From Candidatus Margulisiibacteriota bacterium (lineage in GTDB: Bacteria; Margulisbacteria; WOR-1; O2-12-FULL-45-9; XYB2-FULL-48-7), in contig JBAZTH010000001.1 of assembly GCA_041661965.1 (NCBI GenBank), positions 226,710 to 290,709 on the forward strand: a stretch of 64,000 bases of DNA, written 5' to 3'. Below are positions 9,688 to 63,799 of the stretch, one piece after another. The stretch's first letter is position 1. Each line of letters starts with the position of its first letter. A program made the position numbers and the translations under genes. Under the pieces are notes generated by a model. It did not search any database. It saw nothing but the letters and a program-made list of their open reading frames with translations, and had not been told where the DNA came from.

Positions 9688-9722
9688 CCCTATCGATATA
9701 GTAGAGTATAGGGAGGTGGGCG

Positions 9723-39743: not shown

Positions 39744-40208
39744 ATGGGAGAACTAATAACTAAAGAGAATTTTGAGAAGTTACAGCAGAAACTGGACGAG
39801 CTGAAAAAACGCCGGGTCAAGATCTCGAAAACGATCGGCGAAGCCCGCGAACACGGCGATCTCCGCGAAAATTCCGCTTATCATGCTGCCAAGGACGAGC
39901 AGGGGCTCAACGAAATGCGGATCCGAGAACTCGAAGCCCGGGTCGCCAACGTGACCGTCGTTGATAAGAACGACCTGCCGAAAGGGGATGGCGTCACCTT
40001 GGGTTCGACCGTCAAGGTCAAAGCGCTCGATAACGGAAGCGAATTCGAATTTACCCTAGTTTCCGATATGGAAGCCGATCCGCTGGAGAGCAAAATATCG
40101 ACCGATTCCCCGCTCGGCGGGGCGGTTTTTAACCACAAGATCGGCGACGAGGTCGAGGTTGAACTGCCGCGCGGCCAAGTCACCTACAAGATCATCGAGG
40201 TTCAATAA
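39744..40208 (+). CDS. greA: Transcription elongation factor GreA
   Basis: Coiled-coil N-domain with DLRENSAYHAAK and an FKBP-like C-domain. GGGAG SD 6 nt before ATG 39744. Confidence 0.85.
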   Translation: MGELITKENFEKLQQKLDELKKRRVKISKTIGEAREHGDLRENSAYHAAKDEQGLNEMRIRELEARVANVTVVDKNDLPKGDGVTLGSTVKVKALDNGSEFEFTLVSDMEADPLESKISTDSPLGGAVFNHKIGDEVEVELPRGQVTYKIIEVQ

Positions 40209-42438
40209 TTTGTTAAGATCCGAGCTTAATGTCGCTTTTGTTGGTAATTATTCCCCGCGTATTTGCGGGATTGCTACTTTTACGACCGATCTTTGCGAGG
40301 CGACCGCTAAACTTCTTTCTCCCCGCTCAAATGTCTTTGCGCTTGCCGTCAACGACACCGAGCGGGGGTATTCTTATCCGCGCCGGGTGGAATTTACCCT
40401 GCAAAGAAACCAGCAGAGCGATTATTACGAAGCGGCAAATTTTATCAATGCCAGTAATGCCGATGTGGCCTGCGTTCAGCATGAATACGGGATTTATGGG
40501 GGCTGGGATGGGATCTATATCCTTTCACTGATCTCCAGCTTGAGCGTGCCGGTGGTTGTGGTCCTGCACACGGTGCTTAAAAATCCCACACCCAACCAGA
40601 AAAAGATCGTCCAGGAGATGGCCCAGCGGGCCAATCAGCTGGTGGTGATGAGCGAGCTGGCCGTGACCTTGTTGCAGGAAGTTTATGCTGTCCCGGCCGA
40701 TAAGATCAGGCTGCTCTATCACGGGACTCCCGATTTTACCTCGCTGGATAATGGCCACTACAAAAAACGGTTTCAGGTGGAAGGGAAGCAGACGCTCTTG
40801 ACCTTTGGCTTGCTTAGCCCAAATAAGGGGATTGAAACGGTCATTAAATCGTTGCCCGCCATTGTCAAAGAATTTCCCAAGCTGATCTATGTGGTTTTGG
40901 GAAAAACCCATCCTAATGTCATCAAGGAATACGGCGAAAAATATCGGGCCGGCCTGGTCGCGCTGGTCGATGAGCTGGGATTGGCAGAGCAGGTGATTTT
41001 TGAGGACCGCTTTGTCAGTCTGGAAGAGCTCTACGCCTGGTTGATGGCGGCGGATATCTATATTACTCCCTATTTGAATGAGGCGCAGATCGTCAGCGGG
41101 ACCCTGTCTTACGCGATCGGGGCGGGGAATGCTATTATTTCCACTCCTTACTGGTATGCGAAAGAAATGCTGGCTGAAGGCCGGGGACGGCTGATTGATT
41201 TTGCCGACTCCGACGCTTTGGCCGGTACATTGCGCGAGCTTTTGTCGGACAAAGCCAAATTAAAGCAGCTGCGCGCCAAGACTTATGAATTTGGCCGACA
41301 GATGCGCTGGAGCAAAGTCGCGGAAAAGTACCTGGAAATGTTCCGGCAGACAAAAACGATCGCGACCAGGACTTTGGCGCTGAAAACTCCCGCGCTCCTG
41401 CGCGAGCCGATGTTTGACCTGGCGCACTTAAAGCGGTTGACCGACGACACCGGTCTGATCCAGCACGCCAAATATATTGTTCCCGATCGGCATACCGGTT
41501 ATTGCCTGGACGACAACTCCCGGGCGCTGATGTTATGCGCCTGGGCGTTTTTTCTGGTGCAGAGCGACGAGGCCAAGGCGCTGATCTCCACTTATTTCAG
41601 CTTTACCCATTTTATGCAGAACCCTGACGGGAGCTTCCGGAATTTTATCGATTACCAGCGTCACTTTCTGGATGAGACCGGCTCGGACGATGCTTGCGGC
41701 CGGGCGCTCTGGGCGCTTGGCTATCTTATCTGGCGGCCGCCGCGTAACGCCTATCGCTCCCTGGCCTGCGAATGTTTCCGCAAAGCTTTGCCCCAGGTGC
41801 GCAAGTTAAACCTGCGCGGGAAGGCCTTGGCGATGCTCGGTTTGGCTTCTTATTTGCGCTGCTATCAGGGGGATGAAAGCGCCGCCGCCTTGTTGCGCGA
41901 ATGCGCCGACCATCTTTTAGCTTTATATCAAGAGGTGGCGACCGATGATTGGCGCTGGTTTGAAAATATCCTTTGTTATGACAACGGGATCCTGCCGATG
42001 GCTCTCTTTCAGTCTTATTCCATTCTTCGCGATGAGAAATATTTGAAGGTTGCCAGGGAAACGCTGGGATTTTTAGAGAAAACCACCAGCCAAAACGGGC
42101 GGCTTTCTATTGTCGGAAGCCGTGGCTGGTATAAAAGAGGCGGGGAGAAAGCCCAGTATGACCAGCAGCCGATCGATGCCACGGCGATGGTTCTGGCATA
42201 TCAGTCCGCCTACCGGGTGACCCGGGAGAAAGAATATCTTAAGAAGATGCGCTGGGCGTTCGGTTGGTTTCTCGGCGAGAACGACATGGGGATGTCTTTG
42301 TACGATCACGAGACCAAAGGCTGTGCCGACGGCCTGTTGCCGGAAGGGGTCAGTTTGAACCAGGGCGGGGAGAGCACCGTTTCTTTCCTGATGGCGCTTT
42401 TGGCGATGATCGAAGAGTATGAGATCGAAGGGGCTTAG
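40159..42438 (+). CDS. Two-domain protein: N-terminal GT4 glycosyltransferase plus C-terminal ~350-aa domain of unknown type, possibly an alpha/alpha-toroid glycosidase-like fold
   Basis: GT4 features (NVAFVGNY..., E-x7-E region ENRFVSLEEL). The C-terminal half lacks GT motifs. The start could be 40159 or the TTG at 40210. Confidence 0.55.
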   Translation: MNCRAAKSPTRSSRFNNLLRSELNVAFVGNYSPRICGIATFTTDLCEATAKLLSPRSNVFALAVNDTERGYSYPRRVEFTLQRNQQSDYYEAANFINASNADVACVQHEYGIYGGWDGIYILSLISSLSVPVVVVLHTVLKNPTPNQKKIVQEMAQRANQLVVMSELAVTLLQEVYAVPADKIRLLYHGTPDFTSLDNGHYKKRFQVEGKQTLLTFGLLSPNKGIETVIKSLPAIVKEFPKLIYVVLGKTHPNVIKEYGEKYRAGLVALVDELGLAEQVIFEDRFVSLEELYAWLMAADIYITPYLNEAQIVSGTLSYAIGAGNAIISTPYWYAKEMLAEGRGRLIDFADSDALAGTLRELLSDKAKLKQLRAKTYEFGRQMRWSKVAEKYLEMFRQTKTIATRTLALKTPALLREPMFDLAHLKRLTDDTGLIQHAKYIVPDRHTGYCLDDNSRALMLCAWAFFLVQSDEAKALISTYFSFTHFMQNPDGSFRNFIDYQRHFLDETGSDDACGRALWALGYLIWRPPRNAYRSLACECFRKALPQVRKLNLRGKALAMLGLASYLRCYQGDESAAALLRECADHLLALYQEVATDDWRWFENILCYDNGILPMALFQSYSILRDEKYLKVARETLGFLEKTTSQNGRLSIVGSRGWYKRGGEKAQYDQQPIDATAMVLAYQSAYRVTREKEYLKKMRWAFGWFLGENDMGMSLYDHETKGCADGLLPEGVSLNQGGESTVSFLMALLAMIEEYEIEGA

Positions 42439-44000
42439 CCCTTTTTCAACAGTTTTTCGAGCAGTTCGTTGACCGGAATGCTGGCCACGTGCGATTCCGA
42501 GTCGGAAATAGCGTAAGGGATGATCAGTTCGCCGTTGAGGATTATCGCGCCGCAACTGTAGACGACGTTCGGCACGTAACCGGCGCGTTCTTCTTCCCGC
42601 GGCGCCAGCAGCGGCTCGGCCAGCCGCCCGATCACTTTTGCCGGGTCTTTCAGGTTGAGCAGCGAAACTCCGATGCAGTATTTGCGCATCGGCCCCACGC
42701 CGTGGGTCAGCAGGAGCCACCCTTTTTTGGTTTCGAGCGGCGAGCCGCAGTTGCCGATCTGGACCAGTTCCCAGCTATTGGCCGGCTCTTCTATTTTAAC
42801 CCCGTCGAACCAAAAATGAATATTATCGGAATAGCTTAGGTAGAGGCTTTCCCCGTCGATCCGGGTGATCATGGCGTAGCGGCCGTTGATCTTGCGGGGG
42901 AAAAGGGCCATCCCCTTATTGCGCGCCATCGGTCCGTTCAGGGTGGAGATCTTGAAATGGTGGAAATCTTTTGTCTCGATCAGTTGCGGCAGTATTTCCC
43001 GGCCGTTATAAGCGGTATAGGTTGCGTAGTAGGTGACACTGCCGTCGTCGTCGACAAAACGGACAAAGCGGGCGTCTTCCACCCCGTTGCTTTCGTTCTG
43101 CGAGATGGGGAAAATGACCCGTTCCGAGATCAGCTGGCCTTGCGGGAAAAAGATCTCATAGTTTGATTCGGCCAGCCACCGGATGTGGACAATTGTGTCG
43201 TCCAGGTCGGCCGGCGTAAAAAGATTGCCGTCGCGCACAACGCCGATCGCCTGGTCCAGGTCGGCGGGCGTAAAACTGGCCGGCAGGCGCTGGTCGATCG
43301 CCTTGGCCGCTTCGCTAAAGTAGCCCAGCTCCTCGAGTTTGGCCTTGAACAGTTCCCGGTCGTAGGTCGCGTTCAAAACGATCTCGGGGGTGCCCAAAAA
43401 AGGGCTGATCGGCTCCAAAAAGATCGAGTTGTCCTGGTCGATTATGGCGCTGCGAAAAACGATCGACGAAATGTGTCCCTCGCCGGTCGCGCGAAAGCTG
43501 AAAATAACGCGGGTCTGTCCCTTCTTCATCTGGTTTTGCTTGGGATAGATAACGACCGAGGGGTTGAAGAGGGCGGCCGATTCGATGGAATATTCCATGG
43601 TAAAACAGGCGCCGAGCAAAAGGCGTCTCTCTTCCGACAGCGCTGCCGGATCCGGGGCGTATTTGACGATCCGCTGGTAATTGTTTTTCAAGACGGGGAG
43701 AATATCCTTGTGGCGATGCGCGAAATCCTGAAGCGTTTGCTTTAAGACGATTTTGACTCTTGTCTCATCCAGCGCCAAAATCCGGTTGACGATATTGGCG
43801 ATATGGGACTCGCTGGCGGGGCGGAAAGGGCGGGTAATGATCCGGCGCTGGTCCGGGCGGATATTCTTCAAGGTTTTATTAGTGATCCGCTTGAACAAGC
43901 GTGAAATAACGACCGGGTCATGGAGGGCGGGTTTGCCCAGGTGCTTGTTGGCGATCAAAACCTCGGTGTTTCTCCCGAAAGGTGTTTTTTGTTTAGCCAC
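42435..44000 (-). CDS. GH130-family glycoside phosphorylase-like protein with ~200-aa N-terminal extension
   Basis: C-terminal beta-propeller GH130/DUF377 signatures (DARFVRF.DDGS..YATYTAYNG, GWLLLTHGVGP..YCIGVSLL, VPNVVYSCG). Convergent with the GT4 fusion; the stops overlap. Confidence 0.6.
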   Translation of the reverse strand: MAKQKTPFGRNTEVLIANKHLGKPALHDPVVISRLFKRITNKTLKNIRPDQRRIITRPFRPASESHIANIVNRILALDETRVKIVLKQTLQDFAHRHKDILPVLKNNYQRIVKYAPDPAALSEERRLLLGACFTMEYSIESAALFNPSVVIYPKQNQMKKGQTRVIFSFRATGEGHISSIVFRSAIIDQDNSIFLEPISPFLGTPEIVLNATYDRELFKAKLEELGYFSEAAKAIDQRLPASFTPADLDQAIGVVRDGNLFTPADLDDTIVHIRWLAESNYEIFFPQGQLISERVIFPISQNESNGVEDARFVRFVDDDGSVTYYATYTAYNGREILPQLIETKDFHHFKISTLNGPMARNKGMALFPRKINGRYAMITRIDGESLYLSYSDNIHFWFDGVKIEEPANSWELVQIGNCGSPLETKKGWLLLTHGVGPMRKYCIGVSLLNLKDPAKVIGRLAEPLLAPREEERAGYVPNVVYSCGAIILNGELIIPYAISDSESHVASIPVNELLEKLLKKG

Positions 44001-44201: not shown

Positions 44202-45788
44202 ATGAAAAACAGGTTCTTGGTCGGATCGATTGTCGTTCTAGCATTGGCTTTTGAGGTTTTTAGTATTCCTAATTTGCTTTCATTTGAAGGCCGGTTGACC
44301 GATACTGCCGGCACCCCGGTAACCGCTTCAACCACCGTGCAAATATCGATTTATGATTCTTTGTCGGGCGGAAGTCTGATCTGGGGACCAGAGAGCCATA
44401 CTGTAACCCCGGACAACCAGGGAGTATTCAGTGTTTTACTTGGAGAAACTACGGCCTTAGCCGCAACTGTTTTTGACAGTTCCTCAAGATACGCGCAAAT
44501 CGTTGTCGGCAGTGAGATTTTAAGTCCCAGGGTCAGGATCGTTTCGGTTGGTTATGCTTATAAAGCCGCATCCGCGCAAGGGGTCGAGGCCGGCTCGATT
44601 TCCAGAAGCAGTGTCGCTACCGGCCAGTTCGTTAAGCAAATCGTTGCCGGCTCCGGGATCGGCGTTTCCGGCGATGAGGGGAGCGGGACCGGGGTCGTGA
44701 CTTTAACGGCAACCGGGACCGGCGGGGGAACCGTCACTTCGGTTAACAGCGGAACCGGTTTAACCGGCGGGCCGATAACAGAGACGGGGACAATCTCTCT
44801 GGCAATCCCGGTTGTTGAAATTAACGGCGGCACCAGCCAATCGACCTACACGACCGGCGATATTCTTTATTCTTCGGCCTCCAACACGCTTTCCAAATTG
44901 CCGATCGGCTCCGCCGGACAAATCCTGAAGGTGAGCGGCGGGATCCCTTCGTGGGGAGCGGCCGGCGGGACCGGCACGGTGACGGAGGTCAATACCGGAA
45001 CCGGTCTGACCGGCGGGCCGATAACCGGGATAGGGACAATTTCCGTTGACTCTTCCGTTGTGACTTTGACCGGGGTTCAGACGCTGACCAACAAGACCTT
45101 CACCGATACACTAACAACATTCCAAAACAATGCCGACAACACTAAAAAAGTAGCGCTTGACGCGTCGGGGGTTACGACCGCGCAAACCAGGAGCTGGACC
45201 GTCGGCTCCGGTATCCCGCAGAATATTCAGGTCTTTACGTCAGGCGGAACCTGGGTAAAACCGGCGGGAGTGTCGGTTGTTTATGTGGAGATTTGGGGGG
45301 GGGGCGGCGGCGCCAGGAACGCTTCAAATAACCAATCCGGCGGCGGCGGTGGTGGTGGTGGATATTGCGCGGGATTGGTTTCCGTTTCGGGCAACGTGAC
45401 GGTAACGGTCGGCTCCGGCGGCGCAAACGGCAATCCGGCTTCTGCCGGCGGCGCCAGCAGTTTCGCGGGCGATATCACGCTGACCGCTAATGGCGGCTCG
45501 GACGGCTCTACCCTTGGCGGCGCCGGAGGGACCGCTACCGGCGGAACCATTAATCTTACGGGCGCCACCGGGGTGAGCGGTAAAAATTCCGATGGAGCTG
45601 GCGGCGGCGGTGGTGGCGGCAGTCCGAGAGGAGGAAGCGGCGGTGCGGGTGGGGTAGGGGCAAATGCGGCTAATCCCAGCGTGAATGGAGGAGAAGGCAC
45701 CCAGCCCGGCGGTGGTGGCGGCGGTGGAAGCGAAAATGGTGGAACTGGCGGAAATGGCGGGGCCGGACTGGTTATTGTAAGTTATTAA
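44202..45788 (+). CDS. Secreted repeat protein with a Gly-rich C-terminal region
   Basis: Signal peptide. Internal repeats NxGTGLTGGPITxxGTIS. C-terminal poly-Gly/Ala/Asn tract (GGGGGGGY..., GGGGGGGSPRGGSGGAGG). Confidence 0.4.
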   Translation: MKNRFLVGSIVVLALAFEVFSIPNLLSFEGRLTDTAGTPVTASTTVQISIYDSLSGGSLIWGPESHTVTPDNQGVFSVLLGETTALAATVFDSSSRYAQIVVGSEILSPRVRIVSVGYAYKAASAQGVEAGSISRSSVATGQFVKQIVAGSGIGVSGDEGSGTGVVTLTATGTGGGTVTSVNSGTGLTGGPITETGTISLAIPVVEINGGTSQSTYTTGDILYSSASNTLSKLPIGSAGQILKVSGGIPSWGAAGGTGTVTEVNTGTGLTGGPITGIGTISVDSSVVTLTGVQTLTNKTFTDTLTTFQNNADNTKKVALDASGVTTAQTRSWTVGSGIPQNIQVFTSGGTWVKPAGVSVVYVEIWGGGGGARNASNNQSGGGGGGGGYCAGLVSVSGNVTVTVGSGGANGNPASAGGASSFAGDITLTANGGSDGSTLGGAGGTATGGTINLTGATGVSGKNSDGAGGGGGGGSPRGGSGGAGGVGANAANPSVNGGEGTQPGGGGGGGSENGGTGGNGGAGLVIVSY

Positions 45789-45794
45789 AGAAAT

Positions 45795-46931
45795 ATGGCA
45801 AAGTTAGCGATATTAATTATTCTTATACTGATTGGAGGGACCGCGCAGGGGGCAAGCTCCAGCGCGAATTATAGGTTGACCGCCGAAGTATTTGATTCCG
45901 GCGGATCCGTGGCAGGATCGTCATCATACGCTTTGCGGGGGAAAATTCGTGAAAGGGCGCTGCCCGTCAATATTGGGACTTCTTTTGCATTTAACGGAGG
46001 TTTTTTAAGGAGCGTTTATTTTTCCGCGCCGACCCCCCCCGCGCTGGCGCCGATCGTAATCTCAATTGCCCCGTCCAGTGGACTAAACAGCGGTCCGGTC
46101 AATATAACCGGCCTGGTCGGCGCCAATTTCCGATCGGGAGCGGCGGTTAAATTATCAAAGAGCGGGGAGTCCGACATAAATGCCGTTAATGTCGTAGTCG
46201 TGAATTCCGGGCAGATCACCTGCTCGTTTGATATTGCCGGCGCCGCCGCCGGCTTATGGAACGTATCCGTGATAAATCCTGACGGCGGATCAGGCTCGCT
46301 CCCTTCGGCGTTCACGATCGGTTTCCCCGCGCCGACCGTTGCTTCCATAACCCCTGCCCGCGGGACCAATGACGGGGTCGTTGAGATCATCGATCTGGCC
46401 GGCGGGAACTTCCGTTCAGGGGCGACGGTCAGCTTGTCGAAAGCGGGTCAAAGCGCGATCGCGGGTGAAAATGTCGTCGTTATTTCTTCCGCGAAGATAA
46501 ACTGCCGGTTCAATCTTGCGGGAAAGGAGATCGGTATTTGGGACCTCTCCGTTACCAACGACGACGGTCAATTTGCCTCATTGCCTCTCGGGTTTAAAGT
46601 GGAAGCCGCGTCGATCGGCGTGGTCGGCACGGTCGTCAGTACCTCCAATCCTTTCAATCCCGCCGCCGGCCCGACCACTTTGAAGTATACTTTAACTAAA
46701 GACGCGGATATTACTTTGTATATTTACAATATCAGGGGCGAGCGGGTTTGGCAGCGGTTTTTTTCAGCCGGCACGGCTGGCGGCCAGGTCGGCGTCAACG
46801 AGATCAACTGGGACGGACTGACCGACTTTAAGAGCCTGGTCAGTTTCGGTGTTTACATTCTGGACGTGACTACGAAGGAGGATGGCAAGATCAAGGGGTT
46901 GAGCCGGACGAAAATTGCCATAGTTAAATGA
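45795..46931 (+). CDS. Secreted IPT/TIG-repeat protein with C-terminal FlgD-Ig-like domain
   Basis: Signal peptide. Two IPT/TIG-like repeats (ISIAPSSG...GANF, ITPARGTNDG...GGNF). C-terminus (ITLYIYNIRGERV...WDGL...GVYILDV) matches the FlgD Ig-like fold seen in sorting domains. Confidence 0.5.
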   Translation: MAKLAILIILILIGGTAQGASSSANYRLTAEVFDSGGSVAGSSSYALRGKIRERALPVNIGTSFAFNGGFLRSVYFSAPTPPALAPIVISIAPSSGLNSGPVNITGLVGANFRSGAAVKLSKSGESDINAVNVVVVNSGQITCSFDIAGAAAGLWNVSVINPDGGSGSLPSAFTIGFPAPTVASITPARGTNDGVVEIIDLAGGNFRSGATVSLSKAGQSAIAGENVVVISSAKINCRFNLAGKEIGIWDLSVTNDDGQFASLPLGFKVEAASIGVVGTVVSTSNPFNPAAGPTTLKYTLTKDADITLYIYNIRGERVWQRFFSAGTAGGQVGVNEINWDGLTDFKSLVSFGVYILDVTTKEDGKIKGLSRTKIAIVK

Positions 46932-47905
46932 AAAAAACAATTGTTTTATTGGCCATCTTATTTGTCGGCGGTCAATTTTCCCAGGCCGCGGTGATCGGCA
47001 CCACGGACGATGCCTTGACCATCGGCGGCGGAGCCAGACCGATCGGGATGGGCCGCGCTTTTACCGCGATCGTTGACGATGCCGATGCTCCTTTCATCAA
47101 TCCGGCCGGTTTGGCCGGTATCAAAGGGCCGCAGGCGATGTCGATGTACACTAACTTATTGGGGGAGGTTTATTATCAAGAGTTCAGCGGCGCGGTCCCG
47201 ACGCCGAACGGCACTGTGGGGCTCGGTTATATTACGACCGGCGTGAACAATATTCCGACGACGCCGATCCCGACTGATTATTACGATTCGCTTTTTCTGG
47301 TTTCTTACTCGGTTCCCATCGCCAGGTTCTTTGATTACGGCAAAAATGTTTTTATCGGACTGAATTATAAAATATTCAACCGGGGATATACCGGCGGGAT
47401 CGGCCAGTTCGCGACCGGGACCAGCGCCGATGCCGGACTGCTTGTGATCGTCAATCCCAATCTTTCCTTGGGGCTGTGCCGGCAGAATATTTTGCCGGTT
47501 TCGATGGGCGGGGTGCTCCGTTTGGACGGCGGCGCCGAAGAGGCCCTGGCCGGAATAACCAAAGCGGGCGTCGCGATCAAACCAATCCCCCAGCCGAAGC
47601 TGACAGTGGCGGTGGATGTCGATCTGCCGGCCCAAAGCGCCAGGCCTTTAACCTCGCATCTTGGCCTGGAATGGAAAGAGAATAATTATCTGATGCTTCG
47701 GGCCGGGATCGATCAAAGCGTCGATCCGGGGACCGCGACCCAGACGAGCTGGAACCCATCCTTCGGCACTTCGTTGACCGTCGGAAATTTCCGTGTTGAC
47801 TATGCCTATCACCAATACTATAATGACCCCGGCTTGGCGACAACCTACGTATCGATGTCATATACCGGCGAACCATGGTTCGCCCTTAAGGGGAGGGCCG
47901 AATAA
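46928..47905 (+). CDS. Outer-membrane beta-barrel protein, PorV/FadL-like
   Basis: Signal peptide, then GARPIGMGRAFTAIVDDADAPFINPAGLAG, the hallmark N-terminal motif of PorV-like barrels. C-terminal aromatic-rich region. Confidence 0.4.
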   Translation: MKKTIVLLAILFVGGQFSQAAVIGTTDDALTIGGGARPIGMGRAFTAIVDDADAPFINPAGLAGIKGPQAMSMYTNLLGEVYYQEFSGAVPTPNGTVGLGYITTGVNNIPTTPIPTDYYDSLFLVSYSVPIARFFDYGKNVFIGLNYKIFNRGYTGGIGQFATGTSADAGLLVIVNPNLSLGLCRQNILPVSMGGVLRLDGGAEEALAGITKAGVAIKPIPQPKLTVAVDVDLPAQSARPLTSHLGLEWKENNYLMLRAGIDQSVDPGTATQTSWNPSFGTSLTVGNFRVDYAYHQYYNDPGLATTYVSMSYTGEPWFALKGRAE

Positions 47906-49441
47906 TTGAGGTGTAACCGGTCGATTTTTATTGCGCTTATTTTTTGCCTGCTTATTTTTGGGGTCAGCGCCCAAGTTTCAACGTCGGTCGACCAAAAAGT
48001 TTATCTCCCGGGCGATTTTGTCCATGTGATTGTCGACGCGCCGGTCGATACGACCCAGATTTCAGCCGTTATGCCCGATGGGACCATCGTCAATCTGATC
48101 CAGGGACGGCGGGCCAATCTTTGGCGCGGCATTTGGCAGGTCCCGGTCGATTTCGGGAAGGGGACTTACCGGGCAAAATTAAGCGCCGTCGATGTCAGGG
48201 GGAATATTTTTGACGGCGAAACCAATCCCTTCGCCATCGGAGAATTAGCGGTAATTGCCATCACCAGAAGAGTGACCCCGGAGATCGTTGAAAGACCGCC
48301 GCTGCGTGAAAAGATCGAGGTCAAAACCCAGCCGGCCGCCAAACAGCCCGGCGTGGAAGAGATCGTCAGTCGAATATTGAAGGTTATCCCGATTGTCTCC
48401 GCCGAGCCGGCCCCCTCGCTGGAAAAAGAACAAAAAAAACAATTGATCGCAAAGAACCTGGGAACAGGCCGAGAATTGTTCGATCAGGGAAAATATCTTG
48501 AAGCCTCGGCGTATTTTAAGATCGTTCTTTATCTTGATCCCAAAAACGGCGAAGCGAACTTATATTTATTGCAAACAAAAGAATTCATGAAAACGCAGCA
48601 AACCGGCGCCGCCAGATTTTATATTTTGCTGGCTGTTATCGTTTCGATCGGCGGCGCGCTGATCGCTGCTATTGTTTACTATTTCGGGCGCATGTTGTGG
48701 TGCCGTTTTCCCCGTTGGGCCGCCAAGCCGGCCGCGCCGGCCGCGGTTTCGGATCAAGAAACGATCCCTCTTTCGTTCGGCAAGCTCGGCTGGACAAAAA
48801 ATCCGTTTACGCCCGGCGCTTCCAGTCAAATGTTTAATGAAAACAATGCCCTGGCCAGGCCGGGGTTGATTGGGTTTATCAAGGCTCGAATTGAAGAAGC
48901 CGGAGGAAAAGGGCTTACTCCTTTTACCGATTCGGCGTTGGATAAGATATTTGAGCTCTCCAAAGGAAGGCCGAAAGAAGCGTTGAAGATTTGCGAATGG
49001 ACGGTTGACCTGGCGATCCGGCGGAATAGCGGGCAGGTCACGGCCGAATCGGTCAAAGAATATGAAAAGATCGGCTTGAAAAGGATCTTGATCGCCGATG
49101 ACGATGAGATAGTGCGGATCAGCCTTGACGCGATTTTGAGATCGGGCGGCGGTTATGAGACCGACTTTGCCGTTGACGGCGAAGAAGCCGTAAAAAAGAT
49201 AAAAAGCAGCCTTTACGGACTGGTTTTGCTGGATATCGACATGCCGAAAATGAACGGCTATGAAGTCTTGGAGCAGATCAGGCCAATATTGCCGACCTTG
49301 CCGGTCATTTTTGTTACGGGCAAAGGGACCCCGGCCCGAACGCTGGAAAGCCTTACAAAACAAAACCTGACCGGCTATATTGAAAAGCCTTTTACCCCGG
49401 AAAAAATACTCGATATTATTGCCAGGAATTTAAAAACCTAA
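47906..49441 (+). CDS. Single-pass membrane protein: periplasmic domain with TPR-like segment, cytoplasmic GspA/ExeA-like helical module, C-terminal receiver domain
   Basis: Signal peptide, TM helix at about residues 240-262, REC domain with DDDE...D...K signature. The REC domain is ~55% identical by eye to the stand-alone regulator at 52479-52847. Confidence 0.55.
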   Translation: MRCNRSIFIALIFCLLIFGVSAQVSTSVDQKVYLPGDFVHVIVDAPVDTTQISAVMPDGTIVNLIQGRRANLWRGIWQVPVDFGKGTYRAKLSAVDVRGNIFDGETNPFAIGELAVIAITRRVTPEIVERPPLREKIEVKTQPAAKQPGVEEIVSRILKVIPIVSAEPAPSLEKEQKKQLIAKNLGTGRELFDQGKYLEASAYFKIVLYLDPKNGEANLYLLQTKEFMKTQQTGAARFYILLAVIVSIGGALIAAIVYYFGRMLWCRFPRWAAKPAAPAAVSDQETIPLSFGKLGWTKNPFTPGASSQMFNENNALARPGLIGFIKARIEEAGGKGLTPFTDSALDKIFELSKGRPKEALKICEWTVDLAIRRNSGQVTAESVKEYEKIGLKRILIADDDEIVRISLDAILRSGGGYETDFAVDGEEAVKKIKSSLYGLVLLDIDMPKMNGYEVLEQIRPILPTLPVIFVTGKGTPARTLESLTKQNLTGYIEKPFTPEKILDIIARNLKT

Positions 49442-49508
49442 AAGTGTTTTTTCAGCCTTTGCCGGTTTCGTTGATTTGTCGCCGCGGACGAATCAAGGGG
49501 AGGACGAA

Positions 49509-49943
49509 ATGAGAAAAAAAATTATTATTTTATTGGTTTTGGCGATTACCGGCCAGGCTTCCTGGGCGATACATACCGCGGTCCTGGGCGGGGTGCGCGG
49601 CGGCGCGGCCTTTGGCCTGCAGCTGGAAGAAAATTTAACGAGGAACTTAAAATACCGCCTGGGGCTTGAGGCGACTACCGGCAATAATCCGCTGATCTTT
49701 TTTGGCGGCGGTAAAATCGGCCTGACCGAGATCGACCGTATGCCGCTTTCTCTAAGTTTGGGCTTGGTGGCCTATGCCGGGCAAAATTCCAGCCTGGGAG
49801 CGGCCGTTGCGCTTGTGCTGGATAGGGTTTTCTCGGTTGATCCTTTATTTATTGAAGTCGGGAGCGATGTTGGGGGGGAGGCCAGGTTGGTGGCTCAAAT
49901 CGGCTACCGGATCCTGACGCCGCGTACCGAGAGCCTTCATTAA
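49509..49943 (+). CDS. Small secreted beta-rich protein (putative small OMP); paralog of 29837..30253
   Basis: Start at [10 protein letters not shown]. Shares [16 protein letters not shown] and QIGYRIL blocks with its paralog. Lies directly upstream of copA. Confidence 0.4.
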
Positions 49944-52478: not shown

Positions 52479-52847
52479 TTACCCCTTTTTTCTGGTTGCT
52501 TTAATGACCACATCCAGCACCTCGTTCGGAGTAAAAGGCTTTTCGATAAAACCGCTCAACCCGTTTTTGGCGATCGACGCGACGACCTTCTTAACGTCGG
52601 CTTTGCCGGTAATAAAGATTACCGGCAGGTCGGGATGGATCACTCTGGCTTGGGCCAGCACGTCGTAGCCGCTGATCTTGGGCATCTCGAGATCGAGCAG
52701 GACGGCGTCGTAAAAGGCGGTTTTAATTTTATTGACGGCTTCTTCCCCGTCATAAGCGAAATCGGCCTCGAAACCACCGGCTTTTTTCAGGATTTCCTCA
52801 AGCGATGTCCTCACGATCTCCTCGTCGTCGGCAATTAATATTTTCAT
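52479..52847 (-). CDS. Stand-alone response regulator receiver protein
   Basis: MKILIADDEE...D...K REC signature with no output domain. GAGGTGG SD. Start placed at 52847. Confidence 0.8.
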   Translation of the reverse strand: MKILIADDEEIVRTSLEEILKKAGGFEADFAYDGEEAVNKIKTAFYDAVLLDLEMPKISGYDVLAQARVIHPDLPVIFITGKADVKKVVASIAKNGLSGFIEKPFTPNEVLDVVIKATRKKG

Positions 52848-52884
52848 AAGCCACCTCTTTATCCAATATTTTATATGTTTATTG

Positions 52885-53553
52885 CTATTGAGGCAAGCCC
52901 TGCCTGCCGGCAGGCAGGGAGAAATAGAATCGGGCGCCTTCGACGCCGATCCGGCCGCCCTGTGCCCCCAGGGCAAGTTTGCAAAAATAGAGGCCCAGGC
53001 CGGCGCTGGTTTTTAATTTTAATTCCGGATGTTCGGCCCGAAAGTCCTTGTCAAATACTTTTGACGCGTAGGCCTGCGGGATGCCGTCGCCGGCGGTCGT
53101 TATTTCGAACAGCGCGCCGTCCTTTTCTTTTTTAATGTTAAACGATACCTGTCCTCCGCGATCGACTTGCTTGACGGCGTTTAGCAGCAGGTCCTCTATT
53201 GCCATCAAGGTGAGCTCTTTGTCGGCCCTCACGGTCAGATTGTTATCGATAGCGACGGCAATTGTCTTGTCCTCTTTTCCCGCCAGTTGCCGGATCCAGA
53301 CCAGTTCTTTCTCGAATTCCCGGGCCGGGAATGAAGTTTTGTTAATGATAAGCTCGCCCTGCTCCGCGTTGTTAATAGAGCTTAGTTCCATCAGGAGCAG
53401 GGCGAGCTTTCTTGCGCTGAAATCGATATTGATCAGATATTTTTGCTGTTCCTCGCTGATTGGCCCGAGCGTGCCGTCCAGGAACAGTCCGATCGAGCCG
53501 GTGATGCCGGAGAGAGGATTTTTAAGGTCGTGCAGGATCAGATCGTCAAGCAT
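52885..53553 (-). CDS. Cytoplasmic histidine kinase (HisKA plus HATPase_c only)
   Basis: H-box HDLKNPLSGI, then N, G1 and G2 boxes. No sensor domain. Paralog of 58080-58907. Confidence 0.8.
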   Translation of the reverse strand: MLDDLILHDLKNPLSGITGSIGLFLDGTLGPISEEQQKYLINIDFSARKLALLLMELSSINNAEQGELIINKTSFPAREFEKELVWIRQLAGKEDKTIAVAIDNNLTVRADKELTLMAIEDLLLNAVKQVDRGGQVSFNIKKEKDGALFEITTAGDGIPQAYASKVFDKDFRAEHPELKLKTSAGLGLYFCKLALGAQGGRIGVEGARFYFSLPAGRQGLPQ

Positions 53554-53923
53554 TTTTTTTCTCTAGGGCGGCCTTGATCTTGGCCATCATGACGGTAGGC
53601 TCGAACGGCTTCAGGATATAATCGGCGGCGCCGGCCGCTTTGATCTTGGCCAGGGTCTGGGGCAGGGTGCTGGCGGTGAGAATGATCACCGGAATGAGGG
53701 CGGTTCCCTCCGAACTTTTCAATTCCTTGATGACCTGGTAGCCGTCTTTTTTTGGCATCCAGATGTCAAGGATGATCAGGTCGGGATGTCCGGCGCGGGC
53801 TTTCTGCAGGCCCTCTTCGCCGTCGTAGGCCGACTCCACCTCGTAGCCGCCGGCTTTGGCCAGCCGGAAGGCGAGCATTTCGACAAATTCTGTTTCGTCG
53901 TCAACGAGCAGTATTTTAGCCAT
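53546..53923 (-). CDS. Stand-alone response regulator receiver protein
   Basis: MAKILLVDDE REC signature. Start placed at 53923. Confidence 0.8.
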   Translation of the reverse strand: MAKILLVDDETEFVEMLAFRLAKAGGYEVESAYDGEEGLQKARAGHPDLIILDIWMPKKDGYQVIKELKSSEGTALIPVIILTASTLPQTLAKIKAAGAADYILKPFEPTVMMAKIKAALEKKNA

Positions 53924-53936
53924 TTTGCCTCTCCTT

Positions 53937-56734
53937 TTAAGCGGGATTTTTCGGGAGCGTGAAAGTGAATTTTGACCCGACGTTCTCCTGCGATTCGACC
54001 TGGATCCGCCCGCCATGGAGCTCGATCAGCGACTTGACGATCGCCAGTCCCAGGCCGTCCCTTTCTCCCCGCCGCCCGCGACCCGGCCGAATTGCGTGAA
54101 TTTTTCAAATAATTTGGGCAGATTGGCAGCGGCAATGCCCCGGCCGGTATCGGCGACGCTACATCCGACCTCCTTGTCGTTTTCCTCGCAGGATATTTCG
54201 ATCCGGCCTTTGTCCGTGAATTTCAACGCGTTGCCGATCAGGTTGGTCAAGACTTCGGTGATCTCGTCGCGGTCGGCGTTCAAGATGACCGGAGCGGCGG
54301 GCAGCCGTTCGATCAGTTCCAGCCCTTTCTTCTCCGCCTGCGGACGGAAAGCCGCTAAGGTCTCCCTCATCAGTTGTGCAATATCAAGCGGCTCCTTTTT
54401 GGCTTCCATCCGGCCCGATTCCAGGCGGGAAATATCGAGCAGATCGTTGACGATACGGGCCAGGCGGTCAATGCTCCGAAGGGTCGTCGATAGAAATCTG
54501 GTTTGCCCTTCATTGATCGGCCCATGAATTCCCTCCAGCACTTGCGCCACTCCTTCGTGGATGATCGCCATCGGGGTGCGTAGTTCGTGTGAAACGGTAT
54601 TGACGAAATCGTCTCTGATGTTGACCAGCCGCTTGAAATCGGTGATGTCGACAACGGCGCCGATGCAGCGGACGGCCTTGCCCTGTTTATCAGACTGCAG
54701 TTCGGCTTTCTCCCGGACCCATTTGACCCGGCCATCGACAATGATCCGGTGTTCTATGTCATATTGCTTGCTGACCAGCGCGGCTTGCCAGGCACTGATT
54801 ACGGCGGCCCTGTCGTCAGGATGAACAAAACCGACGAATTTATCGTAACTTACCGGCGCGCCGGCCGGAACGTTAAAAATCTTATAAGTTTCATCGGTCC
54901 AGGTCAGAATGTCGTTTGTGATATCGAAGTCCCAGCTCCCGACCAGGGCCAGTTCCTGCGATTTTTGAAGGCGGTAGCTCTCGATTGCCAGTTTTTCTTC
55001 AGCCTGTTTGCGCTGGGTTATATCGTCGTAAACGGCGACGACCTCGCCGGTCGGCAATTTATAGATATAATTTTCCCGCCAGCCGCTGATCCGCTGATCT
55101 TGATAAAGACCGATCGGGAAATGTTCCGGCTGTCCCGTCCGCCAGACCCGCAGCAGGATATCGAACAAACCGAATGACTTGACTCCCGGGAAGACTTCCA
55201 GCACGCCCCGGCCGACCACCGCTTGCCTGTTAACTTTTTCGATCTGCTCTGCCGCCCGGTTAATGTCCGAAATGATAAAATCTTCGCTGCCGTTTTGTCG
55301 GTAGAGATAAATGACGACGCCGCTGCTCATATTGTCAAAAAGCGACTGGAATTTTACGGCGCTGTCTTTAACGATGCGCTCCAAGGCTTTTTTATAAGTG
55401 ATATCGTTGACCGTTATAATGACGCCCTGGGGTTTTTCAGTGGCGTTTTTGGTAAGGGCCGCGTTGATCGAACCGACAAATTGACTGCCGTCCCGGCGCA
55501 GCAGCGAGTATTCGAGTTCCTTGATCAGGCCGGTCTCCACCGTTTGCTGAAAACTCTTGCGCGCGGCGTTCCGTTGCTCCGGCGTGACCAACTCGAAAAT
55601 GTTTCGGCCGATCATCTCTTCAAGATTTTTTATTCCGTTCATTTTAAGCGCTTCAGCGGATGCGTAGGTGATCTTGCCTTCGAGATCGGCCGCGACAACA
55701 GCGTCGGGGGAAGCGCTGACCAGCCGTTCGAAATTTTCCTTACTTTCTATCAATTCTATCTCGCCCTGGCGCCTGATGATCAAATAAAACCCGAAGCCGA
55801 GCAGTCCCAAGCTTAACAGCCCGATCGCGGCGGCGCGCAGCCCGATCCAAAGCATGGGCGAATAAATTTCCCGGGCGTCGACTTTTGAAATAATGAACCA
55901 GCTTGTGCCGGGAATAGGACGGCCGACCGCCAGGACCGGCACGCCCCGGTAATCGATACCGGTCAGCAGGCGGCTGACGCCTCTGACGGCCATGGCAGCG
56001 GGCAGATATTTCGTGCCGACCGGGAAATGAAGATTGAGAGCGGCGTCCTTTTTGTGGCGAAGTTCGTTCAAAAACACGACCTCGCCGCTTTGTTGCCTGA
56101 CGAGCAGGGTTTCGGCGGAATCGCTCGGCACCGGCCAGATCTGGATCAGGGGAAAGAGGAAAAGCTCGGGATCGATGCGCAGGATCAACACCCCGGCTGC
56201 GTCCCCGTCGTTCATGATCGGCACGCCAATATCCAGCTTGATCCTGCCGTTAGCGCCCCGATGAAAGTCGCAGAGCGTCGATTGTTTTGACCGCAATGTA
56301 TCCAAAATCAATTTTTGTTCATCAACGATATTGATCGGACTATTTTTGTTCTCCGACAGCAGGACAAGGCCGGCCCGGTTGACCAGGCACAGGTTCTCGT
56401 ATTTATGGTGTTTCTTCAATATCCTCATCCAGGTCAAGACTTCCTGCTTTAATTCAGCTGAGCGGCCGCCCTCGAGCCACAACAAAAACGGTTTCGTGAC
56501 TAAGGGAATTTCATTAATGAACGCGGCGTCTTCCATTTGTTTCTGATGCCAATTCTCGATCTGATCGACTTTCAGGTTGGTTATGGCGGTCAGGTTATTG
56601 CGGGCCAATATCTTTAATTGGTCGCGCTGGTTATTAAAATAAGTAAGTCCGATCAGGCAAACTGCCAGCAGGGTAAGCACGACAAAAATGAAAAACCAAA
56701 GGCCGCCGGCGATCCCGGACTTTGACCGCGTCAT
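53937..56734 (-). pseudogene. Multi-PAS sensor histidine kinase with a 1-nt frameshift in the G2 box
   Basis: N-terminal TM plus periplasmic sensor region, second TM, three PAS-like repeats, HisKA (VSHELRTPMA), then N/G1/F boxes. The track ORF ends at 54026 as ...[16 protein letters not shown]. Shifting one nt near 54051-54061 (ACGGCC where ACGGGCC is expected) restores [41 protein letters not shown] with a stop at 53937. Confidence 0.7.
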
Positions 56735-62341: not shown

Positions 62342-63799
62342 ATGCCAGGGAATGTTGAATACTTAACGTCTAACGAAATTAACGCGCTATTGTCCGCGAT
62401 CGATGATACTCGCGATCTGGCGATTGTCCTTCTCTTTTTGAATACCGGGATATTTCTCAACGAGCTGGTTAGTTTAAAAACCGATTCAATTAATTGGGAA
62501 AAGAAGATACTCGCGGTTGCCGGTAATAGGGGGCGAGAGATTCAATTAAACGATCAACTCTTTGAGGCTTTGGCCAAATGGTCCAAAGTTAGAGTGAATA
62601 CTCAAATCACCGCGTTGTTTACGACCACCAAAGGAGAGGTCAACGCTCTCTCTGCCCGAACGGTCGATCACCTTATCCGCAAATATGCCGCCCAGGCCGG
62701 GATCGGCAAAAAGGTTAATGCCAAGATGCTCCGGCATACTTTCGCGGCCAGGCTCTGCCGGGAAGAGGTCTCGATCGACCGGGCGGCCGCCATTCTTGGG
62801 ATTACCGACGCTGAATCGATCAGCCGCTATATTAAAGTGGCAAAAGAGCCGCCGAAAGTCAACCTCGTTCCAGAAGAGGTCGATACTCGCCCAATATTAG
62901 TTAAATTCCTAACCAAACTCTTTCCAACCAAGCCGAAGATTGCCAAGCCGCTTACCACTATCAAAGGAGCGATTCTCCCTAGCCCAACCGAAGTTGCTTT
63001 TGGGCGGGAGGGGGTAATTGAGGATATCAAGGGACATCTCAAGAAAGGGCAGTCGGTTCTTTTGACCGGCCAGGTGGGGATTGGGAAAACGCATCTCCTT
63101 AAAAATATTGCCGGATCATTTGGCGCCACCACTTTTTACTTTTCCTCTCCTTCGCCGATGCGTGATCTGCTCAAACAATTGCATGAAAAGCTAAATTGTC
63201 CGGGCGATAAGCTAAACGGCCGCTCTTCTTCAAAGGAGATCGTTGGTCAGATTACCTCTGCTCTCGAAGCCCCAAAAACCATTCTGATCATCGATAACCT
63301 GGATAGTTTGAAAGCGTCGGATATCGAGACTTTTCTTACGCTTCTCGAGAAGTTTACTATCCTGGGGGCGGTTGAAGAGCCGAAACCGAAGCTCAAGTCG
63401 GTTTGGTGGAAGTTCAAGCGGATCGACCTGAAACCATTGAGCGAAGAGGCGGCCAAAGAGTTGATCCGCTACTTGACCCAGAATCTTTCCATCACCGATT
63501 ACGAGATGCTCGAGACCAGGATTCTTTCTTTGTCCAACCATCTGCCGGTCGCTATTGTCGATATGATCCACCAGGTCAGCCACCGGCCGGTGGTCAATAA
63601 AGAGGTTATTCGCGATGTTTATCATGAGGCGGGAGTTTATTTTCGCGACTGGACCCCCGTCATCATCATTCTTTGGGGGATGGTGATAGCCTTCCGGTTT
63701 GTGGCTCTTGGCATGCACAGCTTTGAAGGGTACATCTTGGCCGGCTTTGGTACCGCTCTGCTCGCGACGGTGCGGGTTTTTATGTTCAAGATGAAATAG
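62342..63799 (+). CDS. Fusion protein: tyrosine-recombinase-like catalytic domain with degenerate active site, plus AAA+/P-loop ATPase, plus C-terminal TM helices
   Basis: Residues 1-170 align to the integrase catalytic fold (LRHTFA box II, ISRYIKV Tyr box), but box I Arg is replaced (TGIFLNEL) and two His positions are substituted. Walker [12 protein letters not shown] and Walker B ILIIDNLD follow. Two C-terminal hydrophobic helices. Confidence 0.55.

What the first reader, a model, noticed from the sequence alone, without database searches (positions are those of the whole stretch)
44202..49441. Cell-surface locus with sorting-domain-like cargo, PorV-like barrel and a receiver-coupled membrane protein
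Four consecutive plus-strand genes encode the following. First, a Gly-rich repeat exoprotein. Second, an IPT/TIG protein ending in an FlgD-Ig-like (T9SS-CTD-like) domain. Third, a barrel with the PorV-type N-terminal GxGRAF..NPAG motif. Fourth, a single-pass membrane protein with a periplasmic TPR-like domain, a GspA/ExeA-like cytoplasmic helical module and a C-terminal receiver domain. Together this looks like a cargo/shuttle/regulator module of a T9SS-like or other surface-display pathway outside Bacteroidota, with an unusual built-in phospho-acceptor.
Basis: partly seen in the sequence, partly recalled or inferred. Interest (0 to 1): 0.5.

Follow-up and report, generated by a model that had tools for sequence, protein, structure and literature searches.

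The report
Fibre-display operon with PorV-like anchor
An uncultured bacterium related to cyanobacteria carries a conserved four-gene operon that probably anchors an adhesive fibre on the cell surface using parts otherwise known only from the type IX secretion system of Bacteroidota, plus a membrane protein in which an ATPase has been replaced by a phosphorylation switch.

Summary
The genome is Candidatus Margulisiibacteriota, outside the FCB superphylum, the only group in which T9SS is known.

- g1 is a secreted fibre. It has a Bdellovibrio-MAT-like N-terminal docking domain and a Gly-rich tip.
- g2 has a conserved N-terminal motif, two TIG domains and a C-terminal beta-sandwich that best matches the CTDs of PorU and PorZ.
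- g4 is a fusion of two genes that are separate in paralogous operons: a periplasmic Ig-like protein and a TPR/transmembrane ExeA-like AAA_22 ATPase. The P-loop core is deleted and a receiver domain is appended.

Across about 100 related loci, a CTD-ending protein sits directly upstream of 50 of 84 PorV-like barrel genes, most often with a 4-nt overlap. The fibre–g2–g3–g4/ExeA order is conserved, and no other gene family recurs.

The best reading is a dedicated cargo/cognate-barrel anchor, like T9SS type-B CTD/SprF/PorE operons or the PorU–PorV and PorZ–PorQ pairs. It is tied to a phospho-regulated ExeA-derived envelope module. It is not a general shuttle.

Whether a T9SS translocon exists in the genome could not be tested. 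All interactions are inferred.

The parts
44202..45788 (+). g1: secreted fibre/adhesin (528 aa). It has a signal peptide (aa 1-21), a MAT-like N-terminal docking domain (aa 22-128, nt 44265-44585), an internal 55-aa repeat (aa 174-228 and 256-310) and a Gly-rich C-terminal tip domain (aa 350-528, nt 45249-45785).
   Evidence: ORF. Gly_rich_2 E 4.7e-9. Bdello_MAT_N E 4e-8, and all 11 N-domains tested match it, best E 4e-13, all below the cutoff of 60. Repeat and Gly content. The same N-domain heads fibres of 528 to over 2600 aa in orthologous operons.
45795..46931 (+). g2: stalk/adaptor protein (378 aa). It has a signal peptide, a conserved N-terminal motif region (aa 20-80, nt 45852-46034; low AF2 confidence), TIG1 (aa 86-176, nt 46050-46322), TIG2 (aa 181-270, nt 46335-46604) and a C-terminal PorU/PorZ-type CTD beta-sandwich (aa 280-378, nt 46632-46928).
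   Evidence: The CTD HMM ends 1-5 residues from the C-terminus in 49 of 50 barrel-adjacent proteins.
46928..47905 (+). g3: outer-membrane 14-strand FadL/PorV-fold barrel (325 aa). It carries the N-terminal GGGARPIGMGRAF...INPAG motif and a conserved C-terminal tail (GxPWxALKG) after the last strand.
47906..49441 (+). g4: bitopic envelope protein (511 aa). Its parts are a signal sequence (aa 1-23), a periplasmic Ig-like domain (aa 30-115, nt 47993-48250), a TPR (aa 185-225, nt 48458-48580), a TM helix (aa 236-258, nt 48611-48679), cytoplasmic ExeA-type N-segment and lid without a P-loop (aa 286-385, nt 48761-49060), and a receiver domain (aa 394-505, nt 49085-49420; acidic cluster D398-D400, D443, T471, K494).
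52479..52847 (-). Stand-alone single-domain response regulator (122 aa), 57% identical to the g4 receiver. It is the likely source of, or paralogous partner to, the fused domain. Inferred association.
   Evidence: The same pairing is seen next to g4 orthologues in L010 and L012.
52885..56734 (-). Histidine kinase (222 aa), a second single-domain receiver, and a dCache/PAS histidine kinase (902 aa). These are candidate phosphodonors for the g4 receiver. Inference only.

Best explanation
This is a self-contained, lineage-conserved surface-fibre display operon of Margulisiibacteriota. All four products are exported by Sec.

- g3 inserts in the outer membrane as a PorV/PorQ-type 14-strand barrel.
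- g2 is held on the cell surface because its C-terminal beta-sandwich (CTD) stays bound to the loops of its own co-translated barrel. This is how PorU sits on PorV, PorZ on PorQ, and type-B CTD adhesins on their cognate SprF/PorP barrels.
- g2's two TIG domains form a short stalk. Its conserved N-terminal segment is proposed to dock the N-terminal domain of the trimeric fibre g1, whose shaft and tip are exchangeable between genomes.
- g4 spans the inner membrane. Its periplasmic Ig-like and TPR parts reach toward the barrel. Its cytoplasmic part is the remnant of an ExeA/GspA-type AAA+ ATPase (N-segment and lid only) fused to a receiver domain.

Assembly, positioning or stability of the outer-membrane fibre complex would then be governed by phosphorylation from neighbouring histidine kinases instead of, or on top of, ATP hydrolysis.

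Shown: the gene structures, the folds and families, the fusion-and-deletion history of g4, and the conserved gene coupling.
Inferred: every protein-protein contact, the surface exposure, and the role of phosphorylation.
Unknown: how g1 and g2 cross the outer membrane.
For: Folds and families:
- The g2 CTD matches the PorU CTD in 22 of 24 orthologues, TIGR04183 in 15 of 24 and PorZ in 2 of 24. The confident AF2 model shows TIG-TIG-CTD, and the top Foldseek hit is PorU 6za2.

Genetic coupling:
- 50 of 84 PorV-like barrel genes have a CTD-ending ORF directly upstream. The modal overlap is 4 nt (23 cases). The four FCB-phylum loci lack this adjacency.

Operon conservation:
- The order fibre - g2 - g3 - g4N protein - ExeA-like ATPase (or fused g4) recurs in about 20 loci found through the barrel.
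- It also recurs in all 6 informative loci found independently through the fibre N-domain.
- No other family recurs in these neighbourhoods.
- Fibre lengths run from 528 to over 2900 aa, with Gly-rich or S74-chaperone ends behind one conserved N-domain.

Origin of g4:
- aa 7-216 match the separate 232-283-aa periplasmic protein.
- aa 150-264 match the TPR/TM part of the membrane ExeA-like ATPase, and aa 324-385 match its lid at 55% identity.
- Walker A and Walker B are absent from g4 and from 4 orthologues. They are present in the ATPase forms and in the soluble 270-285-aa TIGR03015-like ATPase next to g4 in six loci.
- There are 37 full-length homologue clusters, so this is not a pseudogene.

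Receiver domain:
- All catalytic residues are present.
- It is 57% identical to a nearby stand-alone response regulator that lies beside histidine kinases.

Known precedents:
- In T9SS type-B systems the cognate shuttle gene lies directly downstream of the substrate gene, together with a PorE-like cell-wall anchor (PMC12618676).
- The T9SS attachment complex consists of PorU, PorV, PorZ and PorQ (PMC8754138).
- The surface anchor of the MAT fibre N-domain is still unidentified (PMC10769870).
Against: - No interaction was tested. The g2-g3, g1-g2 and g3-g4 contacts are analogies plus gene linkage.
- The g3 and CTD HMM scores for this particular locus fall below curated cutoffs (57.6/90 and 22.7/23). 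The MAT_N match covers only the first half of that model, at 33 bits for full-length g1 and 42 bits for its N-domain alone, against a cutoff of 60.
- The g2 N-terminal segment is modelled with low confidence, so its docking role is speculative.
- Nothing in the operon resembles an outer-membrane translocon able to pass a folded fibre, so an essential step is missing from the model.
- The soluble ExeA-like ATPase that accompanies g4 in several relatives is absent from the 64-kb window.
- Some barrels of the same subfamily lack g2 and a fibre (L005), and distant g1N-type proteins occur without any barrel (L108-L115).
Confidence: 0.5

Rival explanations
1. This is a genuine T9SS cargo plus cognate shuttle. 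Margulisiibacteriota would possess an unreported T9SS-like translocon and motor elsewhere in the genome. g2, and perhaps g1, would be substrates, and g3 their dedicated PorV/SprF-like shuttle collecting them from the translocon. g4 would play a PorE-like or PorX-like accessory role.
Against: T9SS is described only in the FCB superphylum (PMC11205867). No paper links Margulisbacteria to T9SS. There are no T9SS core genes in the 64-kb window. No further family recurs in the 21 close-subfamily loci. Four large unannotated ORFs near barrels give no SprA hit. The accessory proteins that are conserved are ExeA-type, not Por/Gld-type.
Confidence: 0.25
2. The ExeA-derived module and the barrel form a novel export or assembly machine for the fibre, analogous to GspA/B piloting a secretin through peptidoglycan. 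In this reading g2 is a periplasmic or outer-membrane assembly factor rather than a surface stalk.
For: The TPR/TM/AAA_22 protein and its Ig-like partner are conserved next to the barrel even where g2 and the fibre are missing (L005, L013). The soluble partner ATPase aligns over its full length to TIGR03015 (220-234 bits).
Against: There is no secretin or other large pore in any locus. A 14-strand FadL-type barrel is too narrow for a folded trimer. The CTD-barrel coupling also occurs in many loci without any ExeA-like gene.
Confidence: 0.15
3. g3 is an ordinary FadL-type transporter for hydrophobic compounds and its neighbours are functionally unrelated.
Against: Start/stop overlaps and conserved order hold across many genomes. 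PorV scores above FadL by structure, and only PorV/PorQ models hit by sequence.
Confidence: 0.03
4. The locus is a prophage or tailocin remnant supplying a tail fibre.
For: g1 relatives end in a phage-type S74 intramolecular chaperone. Gly_rich_2 and MAT-like domains are phage-fibre-like.
Against: There are no phage structural, replication or lysis genes in the window. The operon is chromosomal and conserved across the phylum with envelope proteins.
Confidence: 0.02

Closest known systems
T9SS type-B CTD substrate / cognate PorP-SprF shuttle / PorE cell-wall anchor operons (Flavobacterium johnsoniae, Porphyromonas gingivalis)
   Same: An adhesin ending in a CTD is encoded immediately upstream of its own dedicated outer-membrane barrel. 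A third component ties the complex to deeper envelope layers (PMC12618676). SLH-fused paralogues of g3 even combine the barrel and the cell-wall anchor in one chain.
   Different: Here the CTD is type-A/FlgD_ig-like and the barrel hits PorV/PorQ models rather than PorP/SprF. The third component is an ExeA-derived inner-membrane protein, not PorE. The host is not in the FCB superphylum, and no translocon is known.
T9SS attachment-complex pairs PorU-PorV and PorZ-PorQ
   Same: The CTD of g2 and its relatives scores best against the PorU and PorZ CTDs. The barrel scores best against the PorV/PorQ family, and PorV is the top structural hit. In this model the CTD protein stays on its barrel. That PorU and PorZ keep their CTDs is my own knowledge, not checked here.
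   Different: g2 has no peptidase (PorU) or beta-propeller (PorZ) domains. The gene pairs are multiplied per genome. No A-LPS sortase chemistry is implied.
GspA/ExeA-GspB/ExeB and the XrtA/PEP-CTERM-associated ATPase (TIGR03015), MshM/MshN
   Same: The paralogous operons encode an AAA_22 ATPase whose best model is TIGR03015 (84-234 bits). It is joined to TPR repeats and a single TM helix, next to a bitopic partner protein. This is an inner-membrane module serving an outer-membrane assembly. The functions of ExeAB and MshMN come from my own knowledge.
   Different: Scores are below the TIGR03015 cutoff of 324.5. No peptidoglycan-binding domain, secretin or exosortase was detected. In the window the ATPase core is deleted and a receiver domain added.
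Bdellovibrio mosaic adhesive trimer (MAT) fibres
   Same: The N-terminal domain is homologous to the first half of Bdello_MAT_N in 11 of 11 cases. One conserved N-domain carries variable shafts and tips, including S74 chaperone ends. The MAT anchor on the cell is unknown (PMC10769870).
   Different: Only model positions 2-80 of 162 match, and scores are under the cutoff. The phylum differs. Whether Bdellovibrio MAT genes have barrel or CTD partners was not examined.

Membership tests
PorV/PorQ family (NCBIfam NF033709) | Whole-protein HMM score at or above the curated cutoff (90 bits) | tested here: not met
   g3 scores 57.6 bits, E 1.5e-15, aligned over positions 6-324 of 326. All 18 family members match, best E 4e-30. 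A paralogue, L006 10018-11334, reaches 86.8 bits.
PorV/PorQ family (NCBIfam NF033709) | 14-strand FadL-superfamily barrel closest to PorV | tested here: met
PorV/PorQ family (NCBIfam NF033709) | Operates with a T9SS translocon and motor (SprA/Sov, PorK/L/M/N) in the same genome | not testable with these tools
   Only 64 kb of the genome and ±10-kb flanks of related loci could be read. None contains such genes. The literature places T9SS only in FCB phyla.
T9SS type A sorting domain (TIGR04183 / Pfam Por_Secre_tail, FlgD_ig) | HMM score at or above the cutoff | tested here: inconclusive
   TIGR04183 22.7 against 23.0, Pfam Por_Secre_tail 15.3/27, FlgD_ig 21.5/27. 15 of 24 orthologues match at E<=0.01. 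One orthologue (P0171) carries the NCBI name.
T9SS type A sorting domain (TIGR04183 / Pfam Por_Secre_tail, FlgD_ig) | Beta-sandwich located at the extreme C-terminus | tested here: met
   AF2 shows strands across aa 294-376 at high confidence. The CTD HMM ends within 1-5 residues of the C-terminus in 49 of 50 barrel-adjacent proteins.
T9SS type A sorting domain (TIGR04183 / Pfam Por_Secre_tail, FlgD_ig) | Recognised by PorV and removed by the PorU sortase | not testable with these tools
   This needs biochemistry. No PorU-like peptidase was seen in any locus.
ExeA/GspA-type AAA+ ATPase (Pfam AAA_22; TIGR03015) | P-loop NTPase core with Walker A and Walker B | tested here: not met
   No G..G.GK[ST] or hhhhDE motif occurs in g4 or in its orthologues in L008, L010, L012 and L014. 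Both motifs are present in L003 and L018 and in the soluble L008 ATPase. L005 has Walker B and a variant Walker A (APLGAGKT) that the pattern misses. tblastn shows that the stretch of the L003 ATPase between about residues 246 and 407 of its 472-aa ORF has no counterpart in g4.
ExeA/GspA-type AAA+ ATPase (Pfam AAA_22; TIGR03015) | Homology of the flanking N-segment and C-terminal lid | tested here: met
   g4 aa 324-385 are 55% identical to the lid of the L003 ATPase and 37% to that of L005. g4 aa 150-264 match its TPR/TM part.
Response regulator receiver (PF00072) | HMM above the cutoff and conserved acidic pocket, phospho-Asp, Thr and Lys | tested here: met
   88.1 bits against 30.2. D398-D400, D443, T471 and K494 are present.
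Bdellovibrio MAT fibre N-domain (NF053851) | HMM score at or above the cutoff (60 bits) over the 162-position model | tested here: not met
   33.2 bits for full-length g1 and 42.4 bits for its N-domain alone, covering model positions 2-80 only. 11 of 11 related N-domains match, best E 4e-13.
IPT/TIG domain (PF01833) | HMM above the cutoff | tested here: met
   26.2 bits against 20.9, two stretches. Two confident Ig-like domains appear in the AF2 model.

The most novel reading that the evidence does not exclude
The CTD-protein/PorV-like-barrel pair is an autonomous, T9SS-independent surface-anchoring and display system of diderm Terrabacteria. It comes in at least two flavours: barrels fused to SLH cell-wall anchors, and barrels served by an ExeA-derived, phospho-regulated inner-membrane module. 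If so, the PorV-CTD recognition unit exists outside T9SS and may predate it, and the g2/g3 pair is the first candidate for the long-sought cell-surface receptor of MAT-type chimeric fibres.
Probability: 0.3. Interest if true: 0.8.

Novelty: new variant of a known kind. Interest (0 to 1): 0.6.

Why it matters
T9SS parts (PorV/PorQ barrels and their CTD ligands) are regarded as a hallmark of the FCB superphylum. Here they appear as many one-to-one gene pairs in a phylum next to Cyanobacteria, wired to different accessory proteins.

- If these genomes lack a translocon, the barrel/CTD pair must work without T9SS. That bears on how T9SS evolved and on how diderm Terrabacteria decorate their outer membrane.
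- The operon gives a concrete, testable candidate for what holds MAT-like adhesive fibres on a cell. That question was left open for Bdellovibrio.
- g4 is a clean natural example of an AAA+ ATPase core being swapped for a phospho-receiver while keeping its docking elements.

All of this is prediction from metagenomic sequence in an uncultured group.

Tried and rejected
- **PamT link.** The g2 N-terminus gives a faint hit to the CPR pilus tip pilin PamT (E 0.0066). I read the Pam pilus preprint. Proteins in distant fibre-containing loci give no Pam hits, so the lead was dropped.
- **Distant g1N-like proteins.** The 540-aa proteins in L108-L115 looked like a baseplate/tail-fibre cluster from their synteny. 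Pfam and NCBIfam find nothing phage-like there. No barrels are nearby, so the fibre domain is wider than the barrel association.
- **g4 Ig-like domain as a CTD mimic.** hhalign between the two alignments gives probability 1.4%. Rejected.
- **PDB sequence searches.** The g3 profile finds only PorV, at E 0.016 through the N-terminal motif. The ExeA-like ATPase and the g4 periplasmic part find nothing useful beyond one TPR.
- **Promoter and terminator scan.** Counts around the operon equal those of shuffles, so it is uninformative.
- **Foldseek of the g2 model.** PorU ranks first, but generic tandem-Ig proteins have similar E-values. This is weak support only.
- **Search for T9SS core genes.** None occur in the window. 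No further conserved family occurs in the 21 close-subfamily loci. Four large unannotated ORFs have no SprA hit. None of this is a genome-wide test.
- **Literature.** Searches linking Margulisbacteria or Saganbacteria to PorV or T9SS returned nothing.
- **Failed scan.** The first metagenome scan, using the 11-sequence fibre alignment, failed for lack of a conserved stretch. It was repeated with 6 sequences.

Full report
**What is there**

The window carries four tightly packed plus-strand ORFs at exactly the reported coordinates. They are g1 (44202-45788), g2 (45795-46931), g3 (46928-47905) and g4 (47906-49441). The junctions are a 6-nt gap, a 4-nt overlap and a 0-nt gap. Identical proteins occur on independent ENA and Logan assemblies. 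NCBI names the organism Candidatus Margulisiibacteriota, a phylum in the Cyanobacteriota/Melainabacteria group. T9SS, by contrast, is described only for the FCB superphylum (PMC11205867).

Apart from one tyrosine recombinase near its end, the rest of the 64-kb window is housekeeping and metabolism: Rnf, arsenic resistance, FeoAB, GreA, a GT4 and a GH130. Downstream lie a copper ATPase and a cluster of histidine kinases and single-domain receivers. There is no Por/Gld/Spr gene.

**The four proteins**

*g1.* This protein has a signal peptide and an N-terminal domain matching the first half of the Bdellovibrio 'mosaic adhesive trimer' N-domain model. The match is E 4e-8, and all 11 related N-domains tested hit the model, all below its cutoff. 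It also has an internal 55-aa repeat and a C-terminal Gly_rich_2 domain that is 37% Gly.

*g2.* It has a signal peptide and a conserved 60-residue N-terminal segment that AF2 cannot place. Two confident TIG domains follow, then a confident C-terminal beta-sandwich. That C-terminal domain misses the T9SS type-A CTD cutoff by a hair (22.7 against 23 bits). Its best-scoring models are the CTDs of PorU and, in relatives, PorZ. Among orthologues, 22 of 24 hit the PorU CTD and 15 of 24 hit TIGR04183.

*g4.* It has a signal sequence, a periplasmic Ig-like domain, a Lys/Pro-rich linker, one consensus-like TPR and one TM helix. After a cytoplasmic segment it ends in a canonical receiver with all catalytic residues.

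**Where g4 came from**

Paralogous operons in the same phylum have two genes in its place. One is a 232-283-aa secreted protein with the same Ig-like domain. The other is a 430-480-aa membrane protein built as signal/TM, TPR, TM, zinc ribbon, AAA_22 ATPase and lid. Its best named relative is the XrtA/PEP-CTERM-associated, ExeA-like ATPase TIGR03015.

g4 matches three parts of this pair:
- aa 7-216 match the first protein.
- aa 150-264 match the TPR/TM part of the second.
- aa 324-385 match its lid at 55% identity.

The Walker A and B core in between has no counterpart in g4, and a receiver follows the lid. This fused form is conserved in 37 homologue clusters at 42-100% identity, annotated only as 'response regulator'. 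In six related loci it sits next to a separate soluble 270-285-aa ATPase that aligns over its full length to TIGR03015. No such gene lies in this window.

The g4 receiver is 57% identical to a stand-alone regulator 3 kb downstream, beside two kinases. The same pairing recurs in relatives.

**Gene context across genomes**

A scan of species-representative genomes with the barrel alignment returned 80 loci, mostly Margulisiibacteriota and Saganbacteria, with several paralogues per genome. I searched all their ORFs with iterated HMMs of each window domain.

*Finding 1: CTD proteins sit directly upstream of barrels.* Of the 84 barrel genes that have upstream sequence, 50 are preceded by an ORF ending in the g2-type CTD.
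- The gaps range from -124 to +61 nt.
- The 4-nt overlap is by far the commonest arrangement, with 23 cases.
- The CTD match ends 1-5 residues from the C-terminus in 49 of 50 cases.
- The four FCB-phylum loci, which carry true PorV contexts, lack this adjacency.

*Finding 2: the whole operon is conserved among close relatives.* In the subfamily more than 50% identical to g3, the order is fibre, g2, g3, Ig-like protein and ExeA-like ATPase, or the fused g4.
- Fibres range from 528 to over 2900 aa behind one conserved N-domain.
- One fibre ends in an S74 intramolecular chaperone.

*Independent check.* A metagenome scan seeded with the fibre N-domain found the same operon in all six loci that had enough downstream sequence. 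Clustering every ORF in 21 loci found no further conserved family.

*Paralogues with cell-wall anchors.* Longer paralogous barrels (525-742 aa) carry two or three C-terminal SLH domains.

**Interpretation**

The gene logic is not that of a general PorV shuttle. It is that of a dedicated cargo/barrel pair. The closest precedent is the T9SS type-B arrangement. There each adhesin's cognate SprF/PorP barrel is encoded immediately downstream, and a PorE-like protein ties the complex to the cell wall (PMC12618676). The PorU, PorV, PorZ and PorQ attachment complex is a second precedent (PMC8754138).

I therefore read the operon as a surface-display cassette:
- g3 is the outer-membrane socket.
- g2 is a stalk held by its CTD.
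- g1 is an exchangeable trimeric fibre docked through its MAT-like N-domain, possibly on the g2 N-terminal motif.
- g4 is an ExeA-derived envelope-spanning factor whose ATPase has been traded for phospho-control.

The conserved C-terminal tail of g3 (GxPWxALKG) is a plausible ligand for the periplasmic TPR. This is conjecture.

**What is not settled**

No contact has been tested. The route by which g1 and g2 cross the outer membrane is unknown, because nothing in the operon looks like a translocon. Whether these genomes hold a T9SS core could not be checked with the available tools. If they do, the locus is a T9SS type-B-like cargo/shuttle unit in a new phylum (rival 1). If they do not, the CTD/PorV-like pair works without T9SS, which would be the more novel outcome.

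No paper in the searchable library connects Margulisbacteria with PorV or T9SS. The MAT-fibre paper states that the surface element bound by the fibre N-domain is unidentified.

**Verdict**

I rate the locus a new variant of a known kind, namely CTD/cognate-barrel anchoring, with an unusual ExeA-to-receiver replacement. Interest is moderately high. Confidence in the mechanistic model is about 0.5.

Noticed in passing
L024 9959-11899, L030 9992-11851, L033 7890-9794, L037 9953-11896, L041 9935-11512, L045 9971-12199, L053 9866-11629: Margulis/Saganbacteria paralogues of g3 are PorV-like barrels fused to two or three C-terminal SLH domains, often with a Glucodextran_B Ig domain. Most are preceded by a large CTD-ending protein. 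The domain order is the reverse of OmpM. This suggests an outer-membrane-to-cell-wall tether that also holds a surface protein.
   Followed up: partly
L066, L075, L077, L079, L082, L086 (ORFs ending near locus position 9500-9940): Giant proteins of at least 3100-3300 aa (the ORFs run off the locus 5' end), made of many FlgD_ig/CTD-like repeats, lie directly upstream of small (~305-340-aa) PorV-like barrels.
   Followed up: no
window 49476-49943 (likely start 49509) and window 29837-30253: Two paralogous small secreted Gly/Ala-rich proteins (144 and 138 aa) have no family hit. One sits just after g4 but is not a conserved operon member in relatives.
   Followed up: partly
window 52479-58083 (- strand) and 59731-61509 (+): A dense two-component cluster: two single-domain receivers, a 222-aa kinase, a dCache/PAS kinase, a PAS protein and further kinases. 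Single-domain receivers also lie immediately upstream of the fibre gene in several related loci (L088, L091, L094, L096, L100, L104).
   Followed up: partly
window 62342-63799: A 485-aa ORF whose first 170 residues match tyrosine recombinase/integrase catalytic domains (XerA-like, E 2e-31). The remaining ~300 residues are unassigned.
   Followed up: no
L108-L115 (for example L112 7708-13161): Distant (28-36% identical) 503-605-aa proteins with the g1-type N-domain lie in a conserved synteny in metagenome contigs, two of them labelled Hainich groundwater. The order is roughly 490-590 aa, 207 aa, 540 aa, 240 aa, then a beta-lactamase-like 325-aa protein. There is no barrel, and most of these proteins have no family hit.
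   Followed up: partly
window 45852-46034 (g2 aa 20-80): A conserved twice-repeated S-A-S-Y-K-I-type motif that AF2 leaves unstructured. It gives a faint hit to the CPR pilus tip pilin PamT (E 0.0066), and 5 of 24 orthologues hit the Leptospira LIC11435 family. Similar motifs head small CTD proteins in L006, L028, L058 and L071.
   Followed up: partly
L014 10001-11005 and L091 12883-13887 (apparently the same WOR-1 genome: identical ORF layout): In this relative, g3 is split into two ORFs (119 and 203 aa), and the soluble ATPase gene precedes g4. This is a possible frameshift or pseudogene.
   Followed up: no
window 40159-44000: Immediately upstream and divergent from the operon lie a 759-aa GT4 glycosyltransferase with a C-terminal epimerase/GH-like region and a 521-aa protein with a GH130 mannoside-phosphorylase domain. 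They are possibly glycan-related neighbours of the surface operon.
   Followed up: no
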